Below, one piece after another: positions 2,708-24,454 of a stretch of 27,354 nt of DNA (within the stretch, counting starts at the first letter, position 1; each line of letters opens with the position of its first letter). The DNA comes from a virus (Duplodnaviria; Heunggongvirae; Uroviricota; Caudoviricetes), in IMG/VR virus record IMGVR_UViG_2703719365_000004, positions 1 through 27,354 of that record; one strand, written 5' to 3'. Both the position numbers and the translations under genes were made by a program. Below the pieces are notes generated by a model that was not told the DNA's origin, made no database searches, and was given only the letters and a program-made list of their open reading frames with translations.

Positions 2708-3030
2708 CGACGTTAACTCAATGCCAGCAGCAGGTGCTGGATATGCTGATTTCTTATCAGAAAGAACGTGGCTTCCCGCCAACCAATCAGGAGGTGGCAA
2801 CCATGCTGGGATACCGTTCAGTGAATGCAGCGGTGGAGCATCTTCGCGCACTGGAGAAAAAAGGCGTCATCACGATAAAGCGTGGCGTGGCCCGGGGGAT
2901 AACGCTTCATATCGCGGTGAAGGACGACGACAGCGAGGCGGTCGGGATTATCCGCGCACTGCTTGCCGGTGAGGAAAACGCAAGGCTGCGTGCAACCCAC
3001 TGGTTACATGAGAGGGACCTGAAAGTATGA
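2704..3030 (+). CDS. LexA-like DNA-binding protein (LexA N-terminal winged-helix domain only; no S24 peptidase domain)
   Basis: MTTLTQCQQQVLDMLISYQKERGFPPTNQEVATMLGYRSVNAAVEHLRALEKKGVITIKRGVARGITLH aligns with the LexA N-terminus ([58 protein letters not shown]...). The protein ends after 108 aa without the Ala-Gly cleavage site or Ser/Lys dyad region. Confidence 0.85.
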   Translation: MTTLTQCQQQVLDMLISYQKERGFPPTNQEVATMLGYRSVNAAVEHLRALEKKGVITIKRGVARGITLHIAVKDDDSEAVGIIRALLAGEENARLRATHWLHERDLKV

Positions 3031-3416
3031 AGCTGATCCTGCCTTTTCCGCCCAGCGTGAACACGTACTGGCGACACCCCAACAAAGGGGCGTTTGCTGG
3101 TAAGAGCCTGATAAGCGCGGCGGGGCGAAAATTCCAGAGCGCGGCGTGCGCAGCAATAGTTGAGCAGTTACGTCGTCTGCCGAAACCAACGTCGGCACCT
3201 GCTTCAGTGGAGATCGTGTTGTTTCCTCCGGATAACCGGATCCGCGATCTGGACAACTATAACAAGGCGCTGTTTGACGCCCTGACCCACGCGGGTGTGT
3301 GGGAAGACGACAGTCAGGTGAAAAGAATGCTGGTGGAGTGGGGACCGGTTATCCCGGAAGGGAAGGTCGAGATCACTATCAGTAAGTACGAGAAAACGGC
3401 GGGTGCAGCCGCCTGA
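3027..3416 (+). CDS. rusA: Holliday-junction resolvase RusA
   Basis: 129-aa ORF starting MKLILPFPPSVNTYWRHP with the conserved acidic residues (DLDNYNKALFDAL) typical of RusA. Nin-region context. Confidence 0.9.
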   Translation: MKLILPFPPSVNTYWRHPNKGAFAGKSLISAAGRKFQSAACAAIVEQLRRLPKPTSAPASVEIVLFPPDNRIRDLDNYNKALFDALTHAGVWEDDSQVKRMLVEWGPVIPEGKVEITISKYEKTAGAAA

Positions 3417-17736: not shown

Positions 17737-17907
17737 ATGTTTGTCAAACCTGTTAAAGGGCGGTCAGTGCCTGACCCTGCCCGCGGCGACCTTTTGCCCG
17801 CCGAAGGGCGAAATGTTGACGAGAACAACTACTGGCTGCGCCGTGAAGCAGCGGGTGATATCCGGCGCGTGAATAAAAAGGTGAACACCGATGACGATAA
17901 GCTTTAA
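17737..17907 (+). CDS. Small conserved protein (DUF2635-like) preceding the tail sheath gene, not in the ORF track
   Basis: ATG at 17737 follows TGAGGA. Translation MFVKPVKGRSVPDPARGDLLPAEGRNVDENNYWLRREAAGDIRRVNKKVNTDDDKL matches my memory of short proteins found before sheath genes in Mu-like tail clusters. Confidence 0.5.
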   Translation: MFVKPVKGRSVPDPARGDLLPAEGRNVDENNYWLRREAAGDIRRVNKKVNTDDDKL

Positions 17908-19387
17908 CACCATTCCGTCGAATACGCTGGTTCCGTTGTTTTATGCGGAAATGGATAACCAGGCGGCGAATACTGCACAGGACAGCGGAGCATCGCTGCT
18001 GATTGGTCATGCCAATAACGGTGCAGAGATTGTTGCCAACAGTCTGGTACTGATGTCGTCGGCAGACTATGCACGCCAGATTTGTGGTGCGGGAAGTCAG
18101 CTGGCGCGTATGGTCGAGGCTTATCGCCAGACTGACCCGTTTGGCGAGCTGTATGTGATTGCCGTTCCTGAATCCACAGGTGCGGCGGCAACAGTTACGC
18201 TGACGGTGACCGGGGCGGCAACCGAAACCGGCACGGTGAATGTGTATGTAGGACGTACCCGCGTGCAGGCACCGGTGACTAACGGCGATAACGTCACGAT
18301 GATTGCCAGCAGTATCCAGGATGCCATCAATGCCGTTCCGACCCTGCCGTTTACGGCTTCATCTTTGGCAGGCGTGGTCACACTGACCGCGCGTCATAAG
18401 GGGCTTTGTGGGAATGAAATTCCTGTCAGCCTCAATTACTACGGCTTTGGTGGGGGCGAAGTGCTGCCAGCGGGCGTACAGATTGCCGTGGCGACGGGTA
18501 CCGCCGGAACGGGTGCTCCGGTTCTCACCGGCGCGGTGGCTGCAATGGCGGATGAGCCGTTTGATTATATCGGCCTGCCGTTCAACGACACGGCCTCCGT
18601 TAACACGCTGGTGACCGAGATGAACGATACCAGCGGTCGCTGGAGCTATGCGCGTCAGCTGTATGGTCATGTGTATACGGCAAAGATCGGCACGCTGTCA
18701 GAACTGGTGACCGCAGGTGACCAGTTTAACCAGCAGCACATTACCCTGGCGGGGTACGAAAAAGAGACCCAGACGCCTGCCGACGAGCTGGCGGCAAGCC
18801 GTACCGCCCGCGCAGCGGTGTTTATCCGCAACGATCCGGCACGTCCCACGCAGACCGGTGAGCTGGTGGGTATGCTGCCTGCGCCGAAGGGGAAACGGTT
18901 CACGATGACCGAACAACAGACCCTGCTGTCTCATGGCGTGGCAACGGCGTATGTCGAAAGCGGGGTACTACGCATTCAGCGTGATGTCACCACGTACAGG
19001 AAAAACGCTTACGGGGTTGCGGATAACAGTTACCTCGACAGTGAGACGCTGCATACCAGCGCGTATGTACTGCGCAAACTGAAATCCGTCATTACCAGTA
19101 AGTACGGGCGTCACAAGCTTGCCAGTGACGGTACCCGCTTTGGTCCCGGTCAGGCGATTGTCACCCCGGCGGTGATCAAAGGGGAACTGCTGGCAACCTA
19201 CCGTCAGCTTGAGCGTGCGGGGATCGTGGAAAACTACGAACTGTTTAAGCAGTACCTGGTTGTGGAGCGTGATGCCAGCGATCCGAACCGCCTGAACACG
19301 CTGTTCCCGCCTGACTATGTTAACCAGCTGCGTGTCTTTGCCGTGGTTAATCAGTTCCGTCTTCAGTATTCAGAGGAGTCTGCATAA
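17891..19387 (+). CDS. Tail sheath protein (Mu gpL-like)
   Basis: 498 aa, the size and position of a contractile-tail sheath protein, directly followed by the tube gene. Confidence 0.9.
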   Translation: MTISFNTIPSNTLVPLFYAEMDNQAANTAQDSGASLLIGHANNGAEIVANSLVLMSSADYARQICGAGSQLARMVEAYRQTDPFGELYVIAVPESTGAAATVTLTVTGAATETGTVNVYVGRTRVQAPVTNGDNVTMIASSIQDAINAVPTLPFTASSLAGVVTLTARHKGLCGNEIPVSLNYYGFGGGEVLPAGVQIAVATGTAGTGAPVLTGAVAAMADEPFDYIGLPFNDTASVNTLVTEMNDTSGRWSYARQLYGHVYTAKIGTLSELVTAGDQFNQQHITLAGYEKETQTPADELAASRTARAAVFIRNDPARPTQTGELVGMLPAPKGKRFTMTEQQTLLSHGVATAYVESGVLRIQRDVTTYRKNAYGVADNSYLDSETLHTSAYVLRKLKSVITSKYGRHKLASDGTRFGPGQAIVTPAVIKGELLATYRQLERAGIVENYELFKQYLVVERDASDPNRLNTLFPPDYVNQLRVFAVVNQFRLQYSEESA

Positions 19388-19743
19388 TGGCCCGTATCGG
19401 GGGAACCTGTTATTTCAAAATTGACGGTCAGCAGCTATCGCTGACCGGCGGCATTGAGGTGCCCATGAACAAAACGGTTAACGATGACATCATCGGCCTG
19501 GACGGTTCAGTGGACCGCAAGGAAACTCACCGTGCGCCTTATGTCAAAGGGACCTTCAAGGTGCCGAAGAATTTTCCGGTAAGCAAAATCACCTCGTCTG
19601 ATGAGATGACCATCACTGCCGAGCTGGCGAACGGTCAGGTCTATGTACTGTCGTCTGCCTGGCTGCACGGCGAAGCGAACCATAATGCCGAAGAAGGCAC
19701 GGTTGATCTTGAGTTCCACGGTGAAGAAGGGGATTACCAGTAA
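19387..19743 (+). CDS. Tail tube protein (Mu gpM-like)
   Basis: 118 aa, MARIGGTCYFKIDGQQLSLTGG..., start overlapping the sheath stop. Conserved sheath-tube order. Confidence 0.9.
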   Translation: MARIGGTCYFKIDGQQLSLTGGIEVPMNKTVNDDIIGLDGSVDRKETHRAPYVKGTFKVPKNFPVSKITSSDEMTITAELANGQVYVLSSAWLHGEANHNAEEGTVDLEFHGEEGDYQ

Positions 19744-20012
19744 TGAAAGAGCTTGAGTTAAAGAAACCGATTACTGCTCATGGCGAGACACTCTCCGTAC
19801 TGGAGTTTGATGAACCCACCGGGAAGGATGTCCGCGAGCTGGGGTATCCCTACCAGATGAATCAGGATGAGTCAGTCAGACTTCTGGCGCATGTGGTGTC
19901 GAAATACATTGTGCGGCTGGCGAAAGTGCCGCAAAGCTCTGTCGACCAGATGTCTCCGGCAGACCTGAATGCAGCGGCGTGGCTTGTGGCTGGTTTTTTC
20001 CTCCAGGCCTGA
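19743..20012 (+). CDS. Tail assembly chaperone (upstream frame, G-like)
   Basis: 89-aa ORF between the tube and tape-measure genes. Contains the slippery heptamer TTTTTTC near its 3' end. Confidence 0.8.
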   Translation: MKELELKKPITAHGETLSVLEFDEPTGKDVRELGYPYQMNQDESVRLLAHVVSKYIVRLAKVPQSSVDQMSPADLNAAAWLVAGFFLQA

Positions 20013-20167
20013 CGGCTGAATACCTCACTGATCGCTTCTTTGACTGCGCCAGCTACTGGCGCATTAATCCTTTCGAATTGCTGAATATGCCGATCAGTGA
20101 AATTCCCTTGCTGGTCAGTCAGGCAAACAGGATAGAGCAGGAGAAACGCACACATGGCGGAATTTGA
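19979..20167 (+). CDS. Tail assembly chaperone, -1 frame extension (GT-like frameshift product segment)
   Basis: Overlapping ORF in the -1 frame relative to 19743..20012. It is reached from the slippery site T_TTT_TTC (about 19994-20000) and ends just inside the tape-measure gene start. Confidence 0.5.
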   Translation: MACGWFFPPGLTAEYLTDRFFDCASYWRINPFELLNMPISEIPLLVSQANRIEQEKRTHGGI

Positions 20168-21989
20168 GCTTAAGGCGTTGATCACCGGTGTCGACAGGCT
20201 TTCTCCCGCGCTGTCGAAAATGCAAAAGAAAATCCGGGGATTTAAACGCCAGGCGGAAGAAGCGTCACAGGGTGGGCTGGCGCTTGGTGGCGGACTGGCA
20301 GCGGGTCTGACGCTTTCCCTGAAATCTTATGCCGATCAGGAAAACGCCGCCACCGGGCTGAAAGTCGCCATGATGGATGCGAACGGCGAGGTTGGAAAGA
20401 GCTTTCAGGACATCAATAAACTGGCTATTGGCCTGGGTAACCAGCTACCCGGTACAACGGCTGATTTCCAGAACATGATGCAGATGCTGGTGCGTCAGGG
20501 GATCCCGGCAGAAAACATTCTTGGCGGTGTGGGTAAAGCGACAGCTTATCTTGCGGTACAACTGAAAAAAACACCGGAAGCGGCTGCTGAGTTTGCTGCA
20601 AAGATGCAGGATGCTACCGGAACGGCGTCAGAAGACATGATGGGGCTGTTCGACACTATCCAGAAGGCGTTTTATCTGGGTGTTGACGATACCAACATGT
20701 TGTCCTTCTTCACTAAAACCAGCTCTGTTCTGAAGATGGTGAACAAGGACGGTCTTCAGGCTGCACAGAGCCTTGCCCCCATCAGCGTCATGATGGATCA
20801 GATGGGGATGAACGGGGAGTCGGCAGGTAACGCCCTGCGAAAAGTTATCCAGTCCGGATTAAGCGTTAAGAAAATCAGGGACGTCAATAAAATCATGGCC
20901 CGCCAGAAACTCGGGGTACAGCTCGATTTTACTGACGGCAAAGGAAGTTTTGGCGGTCTTGATAACATGTTCAGGCAACTGGCAAAGCTGCGAAAACTGA
21001 CCGACGTTAAGCGAACAGGTGTACTTAAGGCAATATTTGGTGATGATGCCGAAACCCTTCAGGTGGTCAATGCACTAATCGATAAAGGAAAGGATGGCTA
21101 CGATCAGATCCAGCAGAAGATGAATAAACAGGCCAGCCTGAATAAACGTGTTCAGGCCCAGCTTGGTACGCTGTCCAACCTGTGGGAGGCAATGACGGGG
21201 ACCGCAACTAACGGCCTTGCGGCTATTGGCGGCGCATTTTCTGGTGACGCCAAAAATATCACGCAATGGCTGGGGGAGTTAGGGGAAAAATTCACGAAGT
21301 TTGCGGATGAAAATCCCCGGGTTATTCGCGGCGTCGTCGGGCTTGCTGCCGGTCTTGCGATTCTGAAACTGGGATTGATGGGCGTTGGCGGTGCCATCAG
21401 TATTGTCAGCAGGATCATGTCGATGACGCCGATTGGAATGATTGCGACGGCGATAGCCCTGGCTGCGGGATTAATTATCACTAACTGGGATGTTGTCGGA
21501 CCTTATTTCAAGAAGCTCTGGGAAACCATTGGTCCTTATTTTGAGGCTGGCTGGGAACTTCTGAAGAAGGTTTTTGCCTGGTCGCCGCTGGGGATGGTAA
21601 TCAATAACTGGGGACCGGTTGTTAAGTGGTTTCAGGATATGTGGGACAAACTGAAGCCAATTATTGAGTGGTTTACCGACAGTTCCGGTGACACGGTCGA
21701 TGCCATTAACTCTGCGCAGTGGGGCGCGGGTGCTTATGATGCTTATGGGACGGGAATACCGGCACGGGGATACACACCTTATCAGGCGGTAGATCCGGCT
21801 CAGTCAAACAACGCCTCCGGTGCCACAGGCCCGAATCCCTTCATGATTAACAAAGCTTCTGCGCCAAAAGTTGATGGTGAGATCAAGGTCTCTTTTGTGA
21901 ATTCGCCTCCGGGTATGCGGGTTATGGAAACGCGATCCAGCGGTTTTGATGTCAGCCATGATGTTGGCTATACGCGCTTTGGCAGGTAA
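20154..21989 (+). CDS. Tail tape measure protein
   Basis: 611 aa, Ala/Gly-rich helical protein with C-terminal hydrophobic segments. Follows the frameshifted chaperone pair. Confidence 0.9.
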   Translation: MAEFELKALITGVDRLSPALSKMQKKIRGFKRQAEEASQGGLALGGGLAAGLTLSLKSYADQENAATGLKVAMMDANGEVGKSFQDINKLAIGLGNQLPGTTADFQNMMQMLVRQGIPAENILGGVGKATAYLAVQLKKTPEAAAEFAAKMQDATGTASEDMMGLFDTIQKAFYLGVDDTNMLSFFTKTSSVLKMVNKDGLQAAQSLAPISVMMDQMGMNGESAGNALRKVIQSGLSVKKIRDVNKIMARQKLGVQLDFTDGKGSFGGLDNMFRQLAKLRKLTDVKRTGVLKAIFGDDAETLQVVNALIDKGKDGYDQIQQKMNKQASLNKRVQAQLGTLSNLWEAMTGTATNGLAAIGGAFSGDAKNITQWLGELGEKFTKFADENPRVIRGVVGLAAGLAILKLGLMGVGGAISIVSRIMSMTPIGMIATAIALAAGLIITNWDVVGPYFKKLWETIGPYFEAGWELLKKVFAWSPLGMVINNWGPVVKWFQDMWDKLKPIIEWFTDSSGDTVDAINSAQWGAGAYDAYGTGIPARGYTPYQAVDPAQSNNASGATGPNPFMINKASAPKVDGEIKVSFVNSPPGMRVMETRSSGFDVSHDVGYTRFGR

Positions 21990-22049
21990 TGAAAAATTAA
22001 TCTGTTAATGAGTCCCACTCCGGTGGGATTTTTTATGTACGGAGTTTAT

Positions 22050-23378
22050 ATGACGTGGAAAGACAGACTTCAGGACGCGTCATTTCGCGGTGTGCCGTTT
22101 AAGGTTGAAGAAGAAAGTGCGGGAACCGGTCGTCGTGTGGAAACGCACGAATACCCGAACCGCGACAAACCCTATACCGAAGACCTGGGGAAAATCACTT
22201 TCCGCCCGTCCATCACAGCTTATGTGGTGGGAGATGACTGCTTTGACCAGCGCGATCGCCTGATTGACGCGCTGAATAAACCCGGTCCCGGCACGCTTGT
22301 CCATCCGACTTACGGTGAGCTGAAAGTCTGTGTTGACGGGGAAGTTCGGGTCAGCACATCGAAGAGTGAAGGGCGTATTGTCCGCTTTGACCTGAAGTTT
22401 GTCGAAGCGGGAGAACTCTCTTACCCCACTTCAGGTGCGGCGACGGCGCAGACGCTGATGTCATCCTGTTCTGCACTGGATGACTGCATCAGTGACAGCT
22501 TCAGTGGTTTCAGTATCGATGGCGTGGCAGATTTTGTGCAGAACGACGTCGTCGGTAATGCCAGCACAATGCTTGGGTATGTTTCTGATGCGATGAAAGT
22601 GGTGGATTCTGCCGTATCGGATGCCGCCAGGCTGTTGCAGGGGGATATCTCGGTACTTCTGCCGCCACCATCGTCAGGCAAAAATTTCGTTGAGCAGGTG
22701 CAGAAAATGTGGCGTACCGGGAAACGCCTTTATGGTAACGCCAGCGACCTGGTCACCATGATCAAAACGCTTTCCGGTGTCAGCCTCGGCAGCGATCTGC
22801 AACCGCGCGGCGTCTGGAAAACGGACAGTAAAACTACCGCCACGGCGACGCAGCAGCGTAACGTGGTTGCCAGCACCCTTCGTACGACCGCAATCAGCGA
22901 AGCGGCGTATGCCGTCACACGATTGCCTGCGCCCACAACTTCCGCGGTGATGCAGAATGCCACAGTAGGGCAGTCAACAACACCCGCGCAGAGCACCGGC
23001 TGGCCTTCTGTCACGCATCCGGCACTGAACAATGCACCGGCGGTGAAAAACACGGTTGACCTGCCAACGTGGGAAGAACTGACCGACATTCGCGACACAC
23101 TGAATACGGCAATTGATAAGGAGTTGTCCCGTACAACCAGTGATGCGCTGTTTCTGGCGCTGCGCCGGGTGAAAGCAGATCTGAATGCGGATATCAACAC
23201 GCGCCTTGAACAGTCTGCACGGATCATTCAGCGCACGCCGGATGAGGTTTTACCCGCGCTGGTGCTGGCGGCGACCTGGTTTGATAACGCGGCGCGTGAC
23301 GCGGACATTATCCGGCGTAATGCCATTACGCATCCCGGCTTTGTGCCGGTGATCCCTCTGAAGGTGCCAGTGCAATGA
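22050..23378 (+). CDS. DNA circulation protein (Mu gpN-like)
   Basis: ORF track 22008..23378; probable start at the ATG at 22050 (MTWKDRLQDASFRGVPFKVEE...). Follows the tape-measure gene as in Mu-like tail modules. Confidence 0.8.
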   Translation: MTWKDRLQDASFRGVPFKVEEESAGTGRRVETHEYPNRDKPYTEDLGKITFRPSITAYVVGDDCFDQRDRLIDALNKPGPGTLVHPTYGELKVCVDGEVRVSTSKSEGRIVRFDLKFVEAGELSYPTSGAATAQTLMSSCSALDDCISDSFSGFSIDGVADFVQNDVVGNASTMLGYVSDAMKVVDSAVSDAARLLQGDISVLLPPPSSGKNFVEQVQKMWRTGKRLYGNASDLVTMIKTLSGVSLGSDLQPRGVWKTDSKTTATATQQRNVVASTLRTTAISEAAYAVTRLPAPTTSAVMQNATVGQSTTPAQSTGWPSVTHPALNNAPAVKNTVDLPTWEELTDIRDTLNTAIDKELSRTTSDALFLALRRVKADLNADINTRLEQSARIIQRTPDEVLPALVLAATWFDNAARDADIIRRNAITHPGFVPVIPLKVPVQ

Positions 23379-24454
23379 ACGACAATGTCACGCTACGGGT
23401 AAATGGCCGGGAGTGGAATGGCTGGACATCGGTGCGCATCGGTGCCGGTATTGAACGGCTGGCGCGGGATTTCAGTGTGGAGATCACTCGCCAGTGGCCG
23501 GGAGATGAGGGTATCACCACGCTTCAGCCGCGCATTAAAAACGGTTCAAAAGTGGAAGTGCTGATTGGTGATGAGCTGGTGATCACCGGCTGGGTGGAGG
23601 CGACTCCCGTTCGTTACGATGCCCGTTCGGTCAGCACCGGTATTGCCGGACGTAGTCTGACGGCTGACCTGATTGACTGTGCAGCCGAACCGACACAGTT
23701 TAACGGACGCTCGCTGGTGCAGATTGCGCAGGCGCTTGCTGCGCCTTTCGGCATTGAGGTGGTGAACAGCGGTGCGCCGTCGGGTGTTATTCCTGATGTT
23801 CAGCCTGATCACGGTGAAACGGTGATTGAGGTTATCAACAAAATACTCGGTCAGCAGCAGGCGCTGGCTTACGACGATCCGCACGGCAGGCTGGTGATTG
23901 GCGGTATTGGCTCAACGCGGGCACATACCGCGCTGGTACTTGGGGAAAACATCCTTTCCTGTGATACGGAGAAGAGTATCCGGGAGCGGTTTTCTGTTTA
24001 CCAGGTGGCGGGGCAGCGTGCCGGAAACGACGATGATTTCGGTGAGGTCACCACCACCGCGCTGCGGGCCCGCACAGAGGACGCATTTATTGCCCGTTAC
24101 CGTCCGATGTATATCAGGCAGACAGGGCAGGCCACGGGGGCAGGCTGTATTGCGCGTGCTGACTTTGAAGCCCGACAACGGGCGGCGCGGACGGATGAAA
24201 CCACCTATGTGGTGCAGGGCTGGCGACAGGGTAACGGTACGCTGTGGCAGCCCAACCAGCGGGTGATTGTCTTCGATCCAGTCTGTGGTTTCGACAATAC
24301 CGAACTGCTTGTCTCGGAAGTCACGTTTACTCAGGACCAGAACGGCACCCTGACGGAAATCCGTGTCGGCCCGCCTGATGCTTATCTGCCTGAACCCGAA
24401 GCCCCCGGCGCGCGGAAAAAGAAAAAAGCCAGAGTACAGGAGGACCCGTTCTGA
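23375..24454 (+). CDS. Baseplate hub / tail protein (Mu gpP-like)
   Basis: 359-aa ORF with overlapping start, in conserved Mu-like order (N, P, gp45, gp46, gp47, gp48). Confidence 0.8.
   Translation: MNDNVTLRVNGREWNGWTSVRIGAGIERLARDFSVEITRQWPGDEGITTLQPRIKNGSKVEVLIGDELVITGWVEATPVRYDARSVSTGIAGRSLTADLIDCAAEPTQFNGRSLVQIAQALAAPFGIEVVNSGAPSGVIPDVQPDHGETVIEVINKILGQQQALAYDDPHGRLVIGGIGSTRAHTALVLGENILSCDTEKSIRERFSVYQVAGQRAGNDDDFGEVTTTALRARTEDAFIARYRPMYIRQTGQATGAGCIARADFEARQRAARTDETTYVVQGWRQGNGTLWQPNQRVIVFDPVCGFDNTELLVSEVTFTQDQNGTLTEIRVGPPDAYLPEPEAPGARKKKKARVQEDPF

What the first reader, a model, noticed from the sequence alone, without database searches (positions are those of the whole stretch)
19743..20167. 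Programmed -1 frameshift site (T_TTT_TTC) in the tail assembly chaperone pair
The upstream chaperone ORF ends ...AGFFLQA*, and the heptamer TTTTTTC sits about 15 nt before its stop. Slipping back by one base there gives ...AGFF-PPGLTAEYLTDRFF..., continuing to 20167 just inside the tape-measure gene. This is the conserved G/GT-type recoding found upstream of tape-measure genes, here in a Mu-like contractile tail module.
Basis: partly seen in the sequence, partly recalled or inferred. Interest (0 to 1): 0.5.

Follow-up and report, generated by a model that had tools for sequence, protein, structure and literature searches.

The report
Tail chaperone -1 frameshift site
An SfV-like prophage of E. 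coli carries, between its tail tube and tape-measure genes, the well-known kind of slippery sequence that lets some ribosomes slip back one base and make a longer version of the tail assembly chaperone; it is real and strongly conserved, but it is an ordinary example that genome annotations happen to miss.

Summary
An 89-aa ORF (19743-20012, Pfam Phage_TAC_7) ends ...AGFFLQA*. TTTTTTC lies at 19994-20000 in the phase T_TTT_TTC. The -1 frame is open from 20000 to a TGA at 20165-20167, 14 nt inside the tape-measure gene (ATG 20154). The predicted fusion is 141 aa.

The sequence alone is weak evidence; comparison is decisive:
- In 99 distinct relatives (27-100% chaperone identity) the heptamer is always T_TTT_TTC or T_TTT_TTT at the same Phe-Phe.
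- The P-site codon is TTT in 99/99 and the preceding codon ends in T in 99/99. Elsewhere in these genes TTT:TTC is 48:48.
- Every complete locus has a -1 extension of at least 45 codons.
- The "gap" shows -1 frame codon periodicity and encodes a conserved peptide.
- Most relatives have no start codon for an independent ORF.

The site is at the same Pfam profile position as the phage P2 E/E+E' site (T_TTT_TTG; 91/142 aa). Mu itself is reported to use a -2 shift at another site. I found no stimulatory structure at the usual distance.

GenBank and RefSeq records of SfV-like phages and E. coli prophages annotate only the short product. Verdict: interpretation supported, a new member of a known kind, low interest.

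The parts
19387..19743 (+). Tail tube gene (118 aa), immediately upstream. Its stop overlaps the chaperone ATG.
   Evidence: PF10618 Tail_tube 3.3e-33 and phrog_185.
19743..20012 (+). Short, zero-frame tail assembly chaperone ('G'/P2-E-like), 89 aa, ending AGFFLQA*.
   Evidence: PF10109 Phage_TAC_7 1.9e-16, residues 4-86 matching profile positions 2-78 of 79. RefSeq annotates it as 'phage tail assembly protein'.
19994..20000 (+). Slippery heptamer T_TTT_TTC. The P-site codon is TTT (19995-19997) and the A-site codon is TTC (19998-20000).
   Evidence: Phase verified. T_TTT_TTC or T_TTT_TTT is present in 99 of 99 distinct relatives. The P-site codon is always TTT and the preceding codon always ends in T.
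20000..20167 (+). -1 frame extension ('T'/E'-like domain): 55 codons (PPGLTAEYLTDRFFDCASYWRINPFELLNMPISEIPLLVSQANRIEQEKRTHGGI) plus TGA at 20165-20167. It is reached only by re-reading C20000.
   Evidence: Open frame. phrog_32181 4.7e-40. Codon-position substitution pattern 0.221/0.134/0.428 in the -1 frame. Conserved peptide motifs in relatives down to SfIV, phiP27, ST64B and YeP1.
19743..20167 (+). Predicted frameshift fusion product (join 19743..20000, 20000..20167), 141 aa.
   Evidence: Constructed. Its size and architecture parallel P2 E+E' (142 aa).
20010..20012 (+). Zero-frame stop codon (TGA), 9 nt after the heptamer.
   Evidence: Its position is not conserved: 9, 24-33 or 63 nt after the heptamer in different sub-lineages.
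20139..20143 (+). AGGAG, a likely Shine-Dalgarno sequence for the tape-measure gene. It lies inside the extension's coding sequence, 10 nt before the ATG.
   Evidence: Read directly from the sequence; inference.
20154..21989 (+). Tape-measure protein gene (611 aa). Its first 14 nt overlap the end of the -1 extension.
   Evidence: PF10145 1.3e-26; phrog_17727 and phrog_28 'tail length tape measure protein'.
20045..20063 (+). Conserved GC-rich hairpin TGCGCCAG-CTA-CTGGCGCA inside the extension, 44 nt after the heptamer. Whether it has any role in the frameshift is unproven.
   Evidence: The stem is invariant, wobble bases included, in 12 of 12 close relatives. There is one compensatory G-C to A-U change (L125), but the hairpin is lost in many sub-lineages.

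Best explanation
This is a programmed -1 ribosomal frameshift of the G/GT (P2 E/E+E') type in the tail assembly chaperone gene of an SfV-like prophage with a Mu-like contractile tail.

Proposed mechanism:
1. Most ribosomes translate 19743-20012 and release the 89-aa chaperone.
2. A minority slip while the P-site tRNA-Phe is on UUU (19995-19997) and the A-site tRNA-Phe is on UUC (19998-20000). Both tRNAs re-pair one base upstream, on UUU UUU.
3. Those ribosomes then read CCU CCA GGC ... and add a 55-residue C-terminal domain, ending at the TGA 14 nt inside the tape-measure gene. The product is a 141-aa fusion.

By analogy with lambda gpG/gpGT and P2 E/E+E', the shared N-terminal domain would coat the tape-measure protein. 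The extension would recruit the tube protein. The fixed, low slip frequency would set the ratio of the two products.

Shown here: the anatomy of the site, nucleotide-level conservation of the slip site, coding constraint on the extension, and the lack of an independent start codon.

Inferred: that the slip is ribosomal, how often it happens, and what the two products do in assembly.
For: - Context: sheath, tube, PF10109 chaperone, tape measure and Mu-type baseplate genes in order.
- Phase: the heptamer is in the X_XXY_YYZ phase, 9 nt before the stop.
- Frames: only the -1 frame is open across the 141-nt gap.
- First set of relatives: in 17 genome loci at 55-100% chaperone identity, TTTTTTC is invariant while the preceding Ala codon varies among GCT, GCC, GCG and GCA. 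The -1 frame stays open for 50-55 codons and ends at the tape-measure start.
- Wider set: in 99 distinct DNAs at 27-100% identity the site is GGT/AGT/CGT/AAT TTT TTC/TTT. The P-site codon is TTT in 99/99 and the base before it is T in 99/99. Elsewhere in the same genes Phe is TTT:TTC = 48:48 and GGT is 33% of Gly codons.
- Wobble bases: 74 of 81 wobble positions in the chaperone body vary among 13 close relatives, yet the three at the heptamer do not.
- Coding constraint: in the gap after the zero-frame stop, pairwise differences at codon positions 1/2/3 of the -1 frame are 0.221/0.134/0.428. The chaperone body gives 0.167/0.097/0.524.
- Conserved peptide: the extension keeps its motifs (..[FY]W[RK][IL][ND]P..QA.RI) in SfIV, phiP27, ST64B and YeP1, whose DNA no longer aligns with the window there. 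It matches phrog_32181.
- No independent start: 15 of 24 loci have no ATG, GTG or TTG between the upstream -1 frame stop and the heptamer.
- Known counterpart: P2 E/E+E' is annotated in the P2 record with a -1 shift at GGT TTT TTG. PF10109 ends at profile position 78 of 79 exactly at the slip site in both proteins (residue 86 here, 85 in P2). Product sizes are 89/141 aa here and 91/142 aa in P2 (PMC3091744).
- Motif competence: U_UUU_UUC is a frameshift-prone motif in E. coli, giving 0.12% without a stimulator, 0.89% with the IS911 stimulators and 7.6% with the IS3 pseudoknot. It belongs to the efficient H_HH.U_UU.Y class (PMC4066793).
Against: - There is no direct evidence for the protein: no mass spectrometry or reporter data for this family were found.
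- The heptamer's measured efficiency without a stimulator is only about 0.12% in an E. coli reporter. That is far below lambda's roughly 1:30 ratio (PMC5009743).
- I found no conserved hairpin at 5-9 nt spacing, no Shine-Dalgarno-like element (-2.7 kcal/mol) and no Rfam match. The real efficiency is therefore unknown.
- An extra U added by RNA polymerase at the U6 run would give the identical protein, so sequence data cannot separate that route from ribosomal slippage.
- The extension does not match Pfam PF06528 (P2 GpE). Its profile similarity to P2 E' is weak (P = 0.003).
Confidence: 0.85

Rival explanations
1. Transcriptional slippage. RNA polymerase occasionally adds one extra U at the U6 run (19994-19999). 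Standard translation of those transcripts gives the same 141-aa GFF-PPGL... fusion.
For: The element is a homopolymer run of T6 (T7 in the SfIV/YeP1-type relatives). An inserted U gives exactly the same protein. No ribosomal stimulator was found. PMC4066793 notes that U7 and A7 runs are avoided in E. coli genes, possibly because of transcriptional slippage.
Against: From my own knowledge, productive slippage by E. coli RNA polymerase generally needs runs of about 8-9 or more; six to seven is short. The run is always in the ribosomal X_XXY_YYZ phase and is never lengthened in 99 relatives, although amino-acid conservation partly confounds this. The homologous P2 site, TTTTTTG, is described as a translational frameshift (PMC3091744, citing Christie 2002).
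Confidence: 0.08
2. Independent small gene. The -1 frame ORF is translated on its own from GTG 19979 (62 aa), as one phage record annotates it, and no frameshift occurs.
For: the ORF listing finds a GTG-initiated ORF at 19979-20167. ON470584.1 annotates the equivalent as a separate 'hypothetical protein'. PHROGs has a family, phrog_32181, built from such calls.
Against: The GTG is the wobble base of an Ala codon plus the TG of a conserved Trp codon. It reads CTG in most relatives. 15 of 24 loci have no possible start codon upstream of the heptamer in that frame, and there is no conserved Met inside the extension. No Shine-Dalgarno-like sequence lies upstream. This reading would not explain the invariant wobble bases of the heptamer.
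Confidence: 0.03
3. Chance or decay. The heptamer is a coincidence of a Gly-Phe-Phe motif, and the gap is non-coding spacer or the remnant of a gene broken by an indel in the T run.
For: T6 runs are common in the window (11 on the + strand). 24% of random frames are open for 55 codons. RefSeq and the SfV record leave the gap unannotated.
Against: The same arrangement occurs in 99 distinct sequences across Enterobacterales phages and prophages, with synonymous-site invariance at the site and -1 frame codon periodicity in the gap. The only 'fused' database proteins are singletons with garbled local sequence, typical of assembly indels.
Confidence: 0.02

Closest known systems
Phage P2 gpE / gpE+E' programmed -1 frameshift (Christie et al. 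2002; annotated in NC_001895)
   Same: - The N-terminal domain belongs to the same Pfam family, PF10109. The profile ends at position 78 of 79 exactly at the slip site in both proteins.
- The codon context is the same: GGT TTT TTN.
- The direction is -1 in both.
- Product sizes are nearly identical: 91/142 aa in P2 and 89/141 aa here.
- The gene lies between the tube and tape-measure genes.
- The extension ends a few nt inside the tape-measure gene: 8 nt in P2 and 14 nt here.
- No downstream stimulatory structure is reported for P2 (PMC3091744), and none was found here.
   Different: - The last base of the heptamer is G in P2 and C here. The A-site tRNA is therefore Leu in P2 and Phe here, which gives cognate re-pairing after the slip.
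- The P2 extension is Pfam PF06528. The extension here does not match that family and belongs to phrog_32181.
- Profile similarity between the two extensions is only suggestive (P = 0.003).
- The surrounding tail genes are Mu-type, not P2-type.
Phage lambda gpG / gpGT (Levin, Hendrix & Casjens 1993; Xu, Hendrix & Duda 2004, 2013, 2014)
   Same: - Two overlapping ORFs lie between the major tail gene and the tape-measure gene.
[quoted passage not shown]
- The proposed roles are the same: the shared domain binds the tape measure, the extension binds the tube protein, and a fixed ratio of the two products is needed (PMC5009743).
   Different: - Lambda slips on G_GGA_AAG in a non-contractile tail.
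- There is no detectable sequence similarity to the lambda proteins.
- Lambda's efficiency (about 1:30) has been measured. The efficiency here is unknown.
Phage Mu gp41 and its -2 frameshift extension (Xu et al. 2004)
   Same: - The neighbouring tail genes are the same kind: Mu gp38-like DUF2635, sheath L, tube M, tape measure, N and P.
- Mu gp41 also hits PF10109, but below Pfam's cutoff (24.7 bits against 25).
- The Mu +1 frame extension shows weak profile similarity to this extension family (P = 0.002).
   Different: - Mu is reported to shift by -2 into the +1 frame, at a G-rich site (PMC5009743, PMC2628397). In Mu the +1 frame is the open one across the gap.
- In the window the +1 frame has 6 stops.
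- Mu gp41 is 144 aa and matches PF23746, which the window protein does not.

Membership tests
G/GT-type tail assembly chaperone frameshift (Xu, Hendrix & Duda 2004) | Two overlapping ORFs lie between the major tail/tube gene and the tape-measure gene. | tested here: met
   Tube gene 19387-19743, ORF1 19743-20012, -1 frame ORF to 20167, tape-measure gene from 20154.
G/GT-type tail assembly chaperone frameshift (Xu, Hendrix & Duda 2004) | A slippery sequence lies near the 3' end of ORF1, in the phase that gives access to the frame of ORF2. | tested here: met
   T_TTT_TTC at 19994-20000, 9 nt before the stop. A -1 slip enters the only open frame.
G/GT-type tail assembly chaperone frameshift (Xu, Hendrix & Duda 2004) | The slip site and the downstream frame are conserved among diverged relatives. 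| tested here: met
   99 of 99 distinct relatives have T_TTT_TTY with invariant wobble bases, and every complete locus has a -1 extension of at least 45 codons.
G/GT-type tail assembly chaperone frameshift (Xu, Hendrix & Duda 2004) | ORF2 codes for protein but has no start of its own. | tested here: met
   Codon periodicity in the -1 frame. Conserved peptide. No candidate start codon in 15 of 24 loci.
G/GT-type tail assembly chaperone frameshift (Xu, Hendrix & Duda 2004) | Both the short and the fused protein are made at a fixed ratio, and both are needed for tail assembly. | not testable with these tools
   This needs expression, mass spectrometry or genetics. No published data for SfV-like phages were found.
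P2 E/E+E' subfamily | The N-terminal domain is PF10109 and the slip occurs at its C-terminal end, on GGT TTT TTN. | tested here: met
   PF10109 profile positions 2-78 match residues 4-86 here and 7-85 in P2. The codons are GGT TTT TTC here and GGT TTT TTG in P2.
P2 E/E+E' subfamily | The extension belongs to Pfam PF06528 (Phage_P2_GpE). | tested here: not met
   No PF06528 hit even at E <= 10, whereas P2 E+E' scores 1.2e-21. hhalign of the extension profile against P2 E' gives P = 0.0033, probability 10%.
Mu gp41 -2 frameshift | The chaperone has the Gp41_Mu domain (PF23746) and shifts by -2 into the +1 frame. | tested here: not met
   The window protein does not hit PF23746. The +1 frame has 6 stops in the gap. 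In Mu the +1 frame is the open one.
Stimulated -1 PRF (dnaX / IS3 / IS911 type) | A downstream hairpin or pseudoknot lies 5-9 nt from the heptamer, and/or a Shine-Dalgarno-like element lies 6-17 nt upstream. | tested here: not met
   The 60 nt downstream fold no better than shuffles (z = 0.15). Only a 3-bp consensus stem lies near the site. Anti-SD pairing is -2.7 kcal/mol. No Rfam element was found.

The most novel reading that the evidence does not exclude
The conserved 8-bp GC hairpin 44 nt downstream of the heptamer (20045-20063) may be a functional RNA element. Its stem is invariant at synonymous positions in the window's sub-lineage, and one relative carries a compensatory change. It could tune the G:GT ratio or tape-measure translation from an unusual distance, for example by pausing frameshifted ribosomes so that a trailing ribosome stalls over the slippery site. 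That would be a distal, collision-type stimulator of a phage tail chaperone frameshift.
Probability: 0.06. Interest if true: 0.45.

Novelty: new member of a known kind. Interest (0 to 1): 0.2.

Why it matters
The main value is for annotation.

- The SfV, SfIV, phiP27, ST64B, AH07 and YeP1 records and the RefSeq E. coli record inspected annotate only the short chaperone. Feature summaries for SfI, SfII and the other listed E. coli records show no fusion product either.
- This region occurs in about 1,090 of 5,426 complete E. coli genomes.
- These records either leave the 141-nt stretch empty or call it a separate 'hypothetical protein'. PHROGs files the extension as a family of unknown function (phrog_32181).
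- Recognising the T_TTT_TTY site would allow the 141-aa fusion to be annotated across this large family.

A secondary point concerns how these tails evolved. Mu-like contractile tail modules do not all use Mu's -2 shift. This lineage uses the P2-style -1 site.

Nothing here changes how tail chaperone frameshifting is understood.

Tried and rejected
- A viral-contig scan with the close-family alignment returned 80 loci with an identical chaperone protein, which told me nothing about conservation. I re-scanned with two diverged chaperones to get diversity.
- 'Fused' 107-139 aa proteins in the protein database (P0001-P0006) looked at first like natural in-frame fusions. They are singletons with scrambled local sequence, most likely assembly indels, so I did not use them.
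- Stimulatory elements:
  - The 107-nt fold of 19994-20100 gives z = -3.7, driven by a 9-bp long-range inverted repeat. That repeat is not conserved in relatives, so I rejected it.
  - The small GGCC/GGCU hairpin at spacer 5 is only 3-4 bp and lies in doubly coding sequence.
  - No Shine-Dalgarno-like element was found and there was no Rfam hit.
- A sequence search of the PDB gave only spurious light-harvesting-protein hits.
- The primary papers, Xu et al. 2004 and Christie et al. 2002, are not held in the library. I could therefore not check whether SfV was already listed there.
- Literature searches for an explicit report of this site in SfV-like phages found none.
- No promoter or terminator was found in the gap.

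Full report
**What is there**

The window is a prophage whose long ORFs, including all its identified genes, lie on the + strand. The region around the finding is 100% identical to prophages in many E. coli O157:H7 genomes. It is present in about 1,090 of 5,426 complete E. coli genomes. It is 98.8% identical to Shigella phage SfV.

Gene order around the finding:
- DUF2635 / Mu gp38-like small ORF
- tail sheath, 17891-19387
- tail tube, 19387-19743 (PF10618)
- an 89-aa ORF, 19743-20012
- a 141-nt stretch with no annotated gene
- tape-measure protein, 20154-21989 (PF10145)
- Mu-N-like DNA circulation protein, 22008-23378
- Mu-P/gp44-like baseplate hub, 23375-24454

The 89-aa ORF matches PF10109, 'Phage tail assembly chaperone proteins, E, or 41 or 14', at 1.9e-16.

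**Checking the observation**

- The ORF ends GCT GGT TTT TTC CTC CAG GCC TGA. TTTTTTC is therefore at 19994-20000 in the phase T_TTT_TTC, 9 nt before the stop.
- Reading from C20000 in the -1 frame gives 55 codons, PPGLTAEYLTDRFF...RTHGGI, and a TGA at 20165-20167. That is 14 nt inside the tape-measure gene.
- The zero frame has 3 stops in the gap and the +1 frame has 6.
- The predicted fusion protein is 141 aa.

The sequence alone is not statistically impressive. T6 runs occur 11 times on the + strand. About 24% of random frames in this window are open for 55 codons. Among real genes, though, this is the only in-phase heptamer followed by a long -1 ORF that runs past the stop.

**Comparative evidence**

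*First set of relatives.* A scan of one genome per species returned 17 loci whose chaperone is 55-100% identical to the window's. All 17 have TTTTTTC at the same codon position, and GGT TTT TTC is invariant while the preceding Ala codon varies among GCT, GCC, GCG and GCA. In every locus the -1 frame is open for 50-55 codons and ends at or just inside the tape-measure start. The zero-frame stop moves: 9 nt after the heptamer in some, 24-27 nt in others.

*Substitution pattern.* Among 13 distinct close sequences, 74 of 81 wobble positions in the chaperone body vary, but the three wobble positions inside the heptamer do not. In the gap after the zero-frame stop, pairwise differences at codon positions 1/2/3 of the -1 frame are 0.221/0.134/0.428. 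That is the signature of a translated frame; the chaperone body gives 0.167/0.097/0.524.

*Wider set.* Two further viral-contig scans with diverged chaperones, plus phage records, brought the set to 99 distinct DNAs at 27-100% identity to the window's chaperone.

| Feature | At the slip site | Elsewhere in the same genes |
|---|---|---|
| Heptamer | T_TTT_TTC in 77, T_TTT_TTT in 22 | - |
| P-site Phe codon | TTT in 99/99 | TTT:TTC = 48:48 |
| Preceding codon | ends in T in 99/99 (GGT 93, AGT 3, CGT 2, AAT 1) | GGT is 33% of Gly codons |

The T before the run is kept even where the amino acid changes. Every locus that does not run off its contig has a -1 extension of at least 45 codons.

*More distant phages.* The DNA of SfIV, phiP27, ST64B and YeP1 no longer aligns with the window over this region. 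They carry T_TTT_TTT at the equivalent Phe-Phe, followed by a 52-53 aa -1 extension. That extension shares the motifs ..[FY]W[RK][IL][ND]P...QA.RI.. with the window's.

**Rivals**

- *Independent ORF.* An ORF starting at GTG 19979 is what one GenBank record annotates. That GTG is not conserved, and 15 of 24 loci have no possible start codon in that frame upstream of the heptamer. There is no conserved internal Met and no Shine-Dalgarno-like sequence.
- *Chance or gene decay.* This is excluded by the conservation pattern above. The few 'fused' database proteins are singletons with garbled sequence.
- *Transcriptional slippage.* An extra U at the U6 run would give the identical protein, so it cannot be excluded from sequence. 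I rate it unlikely (about 0.08). The run is only 6-7 nt and is never lengthened. The homologous P2 site is described as a translational frameshift (PMC3091744).

**Mechanism and efficiency**

With tRNA-Phe on both UUU (P site) and UUC (A site), a tandem -1 slip gives cognate or wobble re-pairing on UUU UUU.

Sharma et al. 2014 measured frameshifting on UUUUUUC in E. coli: 0.12% without a stimulator, 0.89% with the IS911 stimulators and 7.6% with the IS3 pseudoknot. They place H_HH.U_UU.Y among the efficient motifs. The P2 motif UUUUUUG gave 0.118% without a stimulator (PMC4066793).

- The 60 nt downstream fold no better than shuffled sequence (z = 0.15).
- The consensus fold of 12 relatives has only a 3-bp stem near the site.
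- Anti-SD pairing upstream is -2.7 kcal/mol.
- Rfam finds nothing.

This agrees with the reported absence of stimulators in P2 (PMC3091744). The efficiency is therefore unknown and may be low.

The functional model comes from lambda (PMC5009743). In it, the shared domain binds the tape-measure protein, the extension recruits the tube protein, and the ratio of the two products matters. That model was not tested here.

**Comparison with known systems**

- *Phage P2 E/E+E'* is the closest known case. Both N-terminal domains are PF10109, and the profile ends at position 78 of 79 exactly at the slip site in both proteins. The codon context is GGT TTT TTG in P2 and GGT TTT TTC here. Product sizes are 91/142 aa and 89/141 aa. 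In both, the extension ends just inside the tape-measure gene.
- *The extension domains differ.* P2's is PF06528. The window's is not and belongs to phrog_32181, 'unknown function'. Profile comparison gives only weak similarity to P2 E' (P = 0.0033) and to the Mu +1 frame extension (P = 0.0021).
- *Mu itself*, although the tail module is Mu-like, is reported to use a -2 shift (PMC5009743, PMC2628397). In my translation only the +1 frame is open across the Mu gap.

**Annotation status and novelty**

RefSeq/PGAP, the SfV record and the SfIV, phiP27, ST64B, AH07 and YeP1 records annotate only the short protein. I found no paper in the searchable library that reports this site for SfV-like phages. 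I could not read Xu et al. 2004, which may already list it.

I therefore class the finding as a new, or at least unannotated, member of a thoroughly known kind. Interest is low, at 0.2.

**One thing seen in passing**

An 8-bp GC hairpin at 20045-20063 has a stem that is invariant, wobble bases included, in the window's sub-lineage. One relative has a compensatory G-C to A-U change, but the hairpin is absent from many other sub-lineages. It lies 44 nt from the heptamer, too far for a classical stimulator. Its role, if it has one, is unknown.

Noticed in passing
window 20045-20063 (+): A perfect 8-bp GC-rich hairpin or palindrome, TGCGCCAG-CTA-CTGGCGCA, lies inside the -1 extension (codons C-A-S-Y-W-R). 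In 12 of 12 close relatives, and in L019/L020 (chaperone only 55% identical), the stem is invariant at wobble positions and only the loop varies. L125 has a compensatory G-C to A-U change. The hairpin is broken or absent in L017, L018, L110-L129, and the SfIV, YeP1 and P2 types. It occurs only once in the window.
   Followed up: partly
window 19979-20167 (+); L003 2093-2275; L001 3627-3767: Public records treat the extension inconsistently. RefSeq and the SfV record leave a 141-nt unannotated gap, and the RefSeq locus tags jump from RS01715 to RS01725. ON470584.1 calls a separate 60-aa 'hypothetical protein'. PHROGs holds it as phrog_32181, 'unknown function'.
   Followed up: yes
window 20159-20167 compared with L004-L006 1912-1919: The window's extension is 2 aa longer (...THGGI*) than in SfV-type relatives (...THG*). 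A synonymous change in the tape-measure gene's second codon (GCT to GCG) removes the overlapping TGA.
   Followed up: yes
L101 (Mu) 2960-3130; L105 (P2) 686-858; window 20000-20167: The extension domains reached by -1 (SfV type, P2) and by -2 (Mu) share a weak common motif (P..[LM]..[MP][SP]L[ST]..[LF]...[QK]A). hhalign gives P = 0.003 against P2 E' and P = 0.002 against the Mu extension. This suggests one ancestral 'T' domain reached through different frames, but it is not significant.
   Followed up: partly
L151, L154-L185 (IMG/VR loci), about 5-8 nt after the heptamer: A diverged sub-lineage, with chaperones ending AGFFM[ST]AAS..., has stable predicted structures (-13 to -22 kcal/mol in most members) starting 3-8 nt downstream of T_TTT_TTC. 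These could be real stimulators in that lineage. The window's lineage has nothing comparable.
   Followed up: no
L008, L013, L019, L020 and other loci: Many relatives have GGG TTT TTC preceded by G (G_GGT_TTT_TTC). This gives two overlapping in-phase heptamers, GGGTTTT and TTTTTTC. The window has GCT GGT and so only the second.
   Followed up: no
L104 (ST64B): [quoted passage not shown] I did not work out which gene is meant, or whether it is connected with the programmed T_TTT_TTT site in sb15.
   Followed up: no
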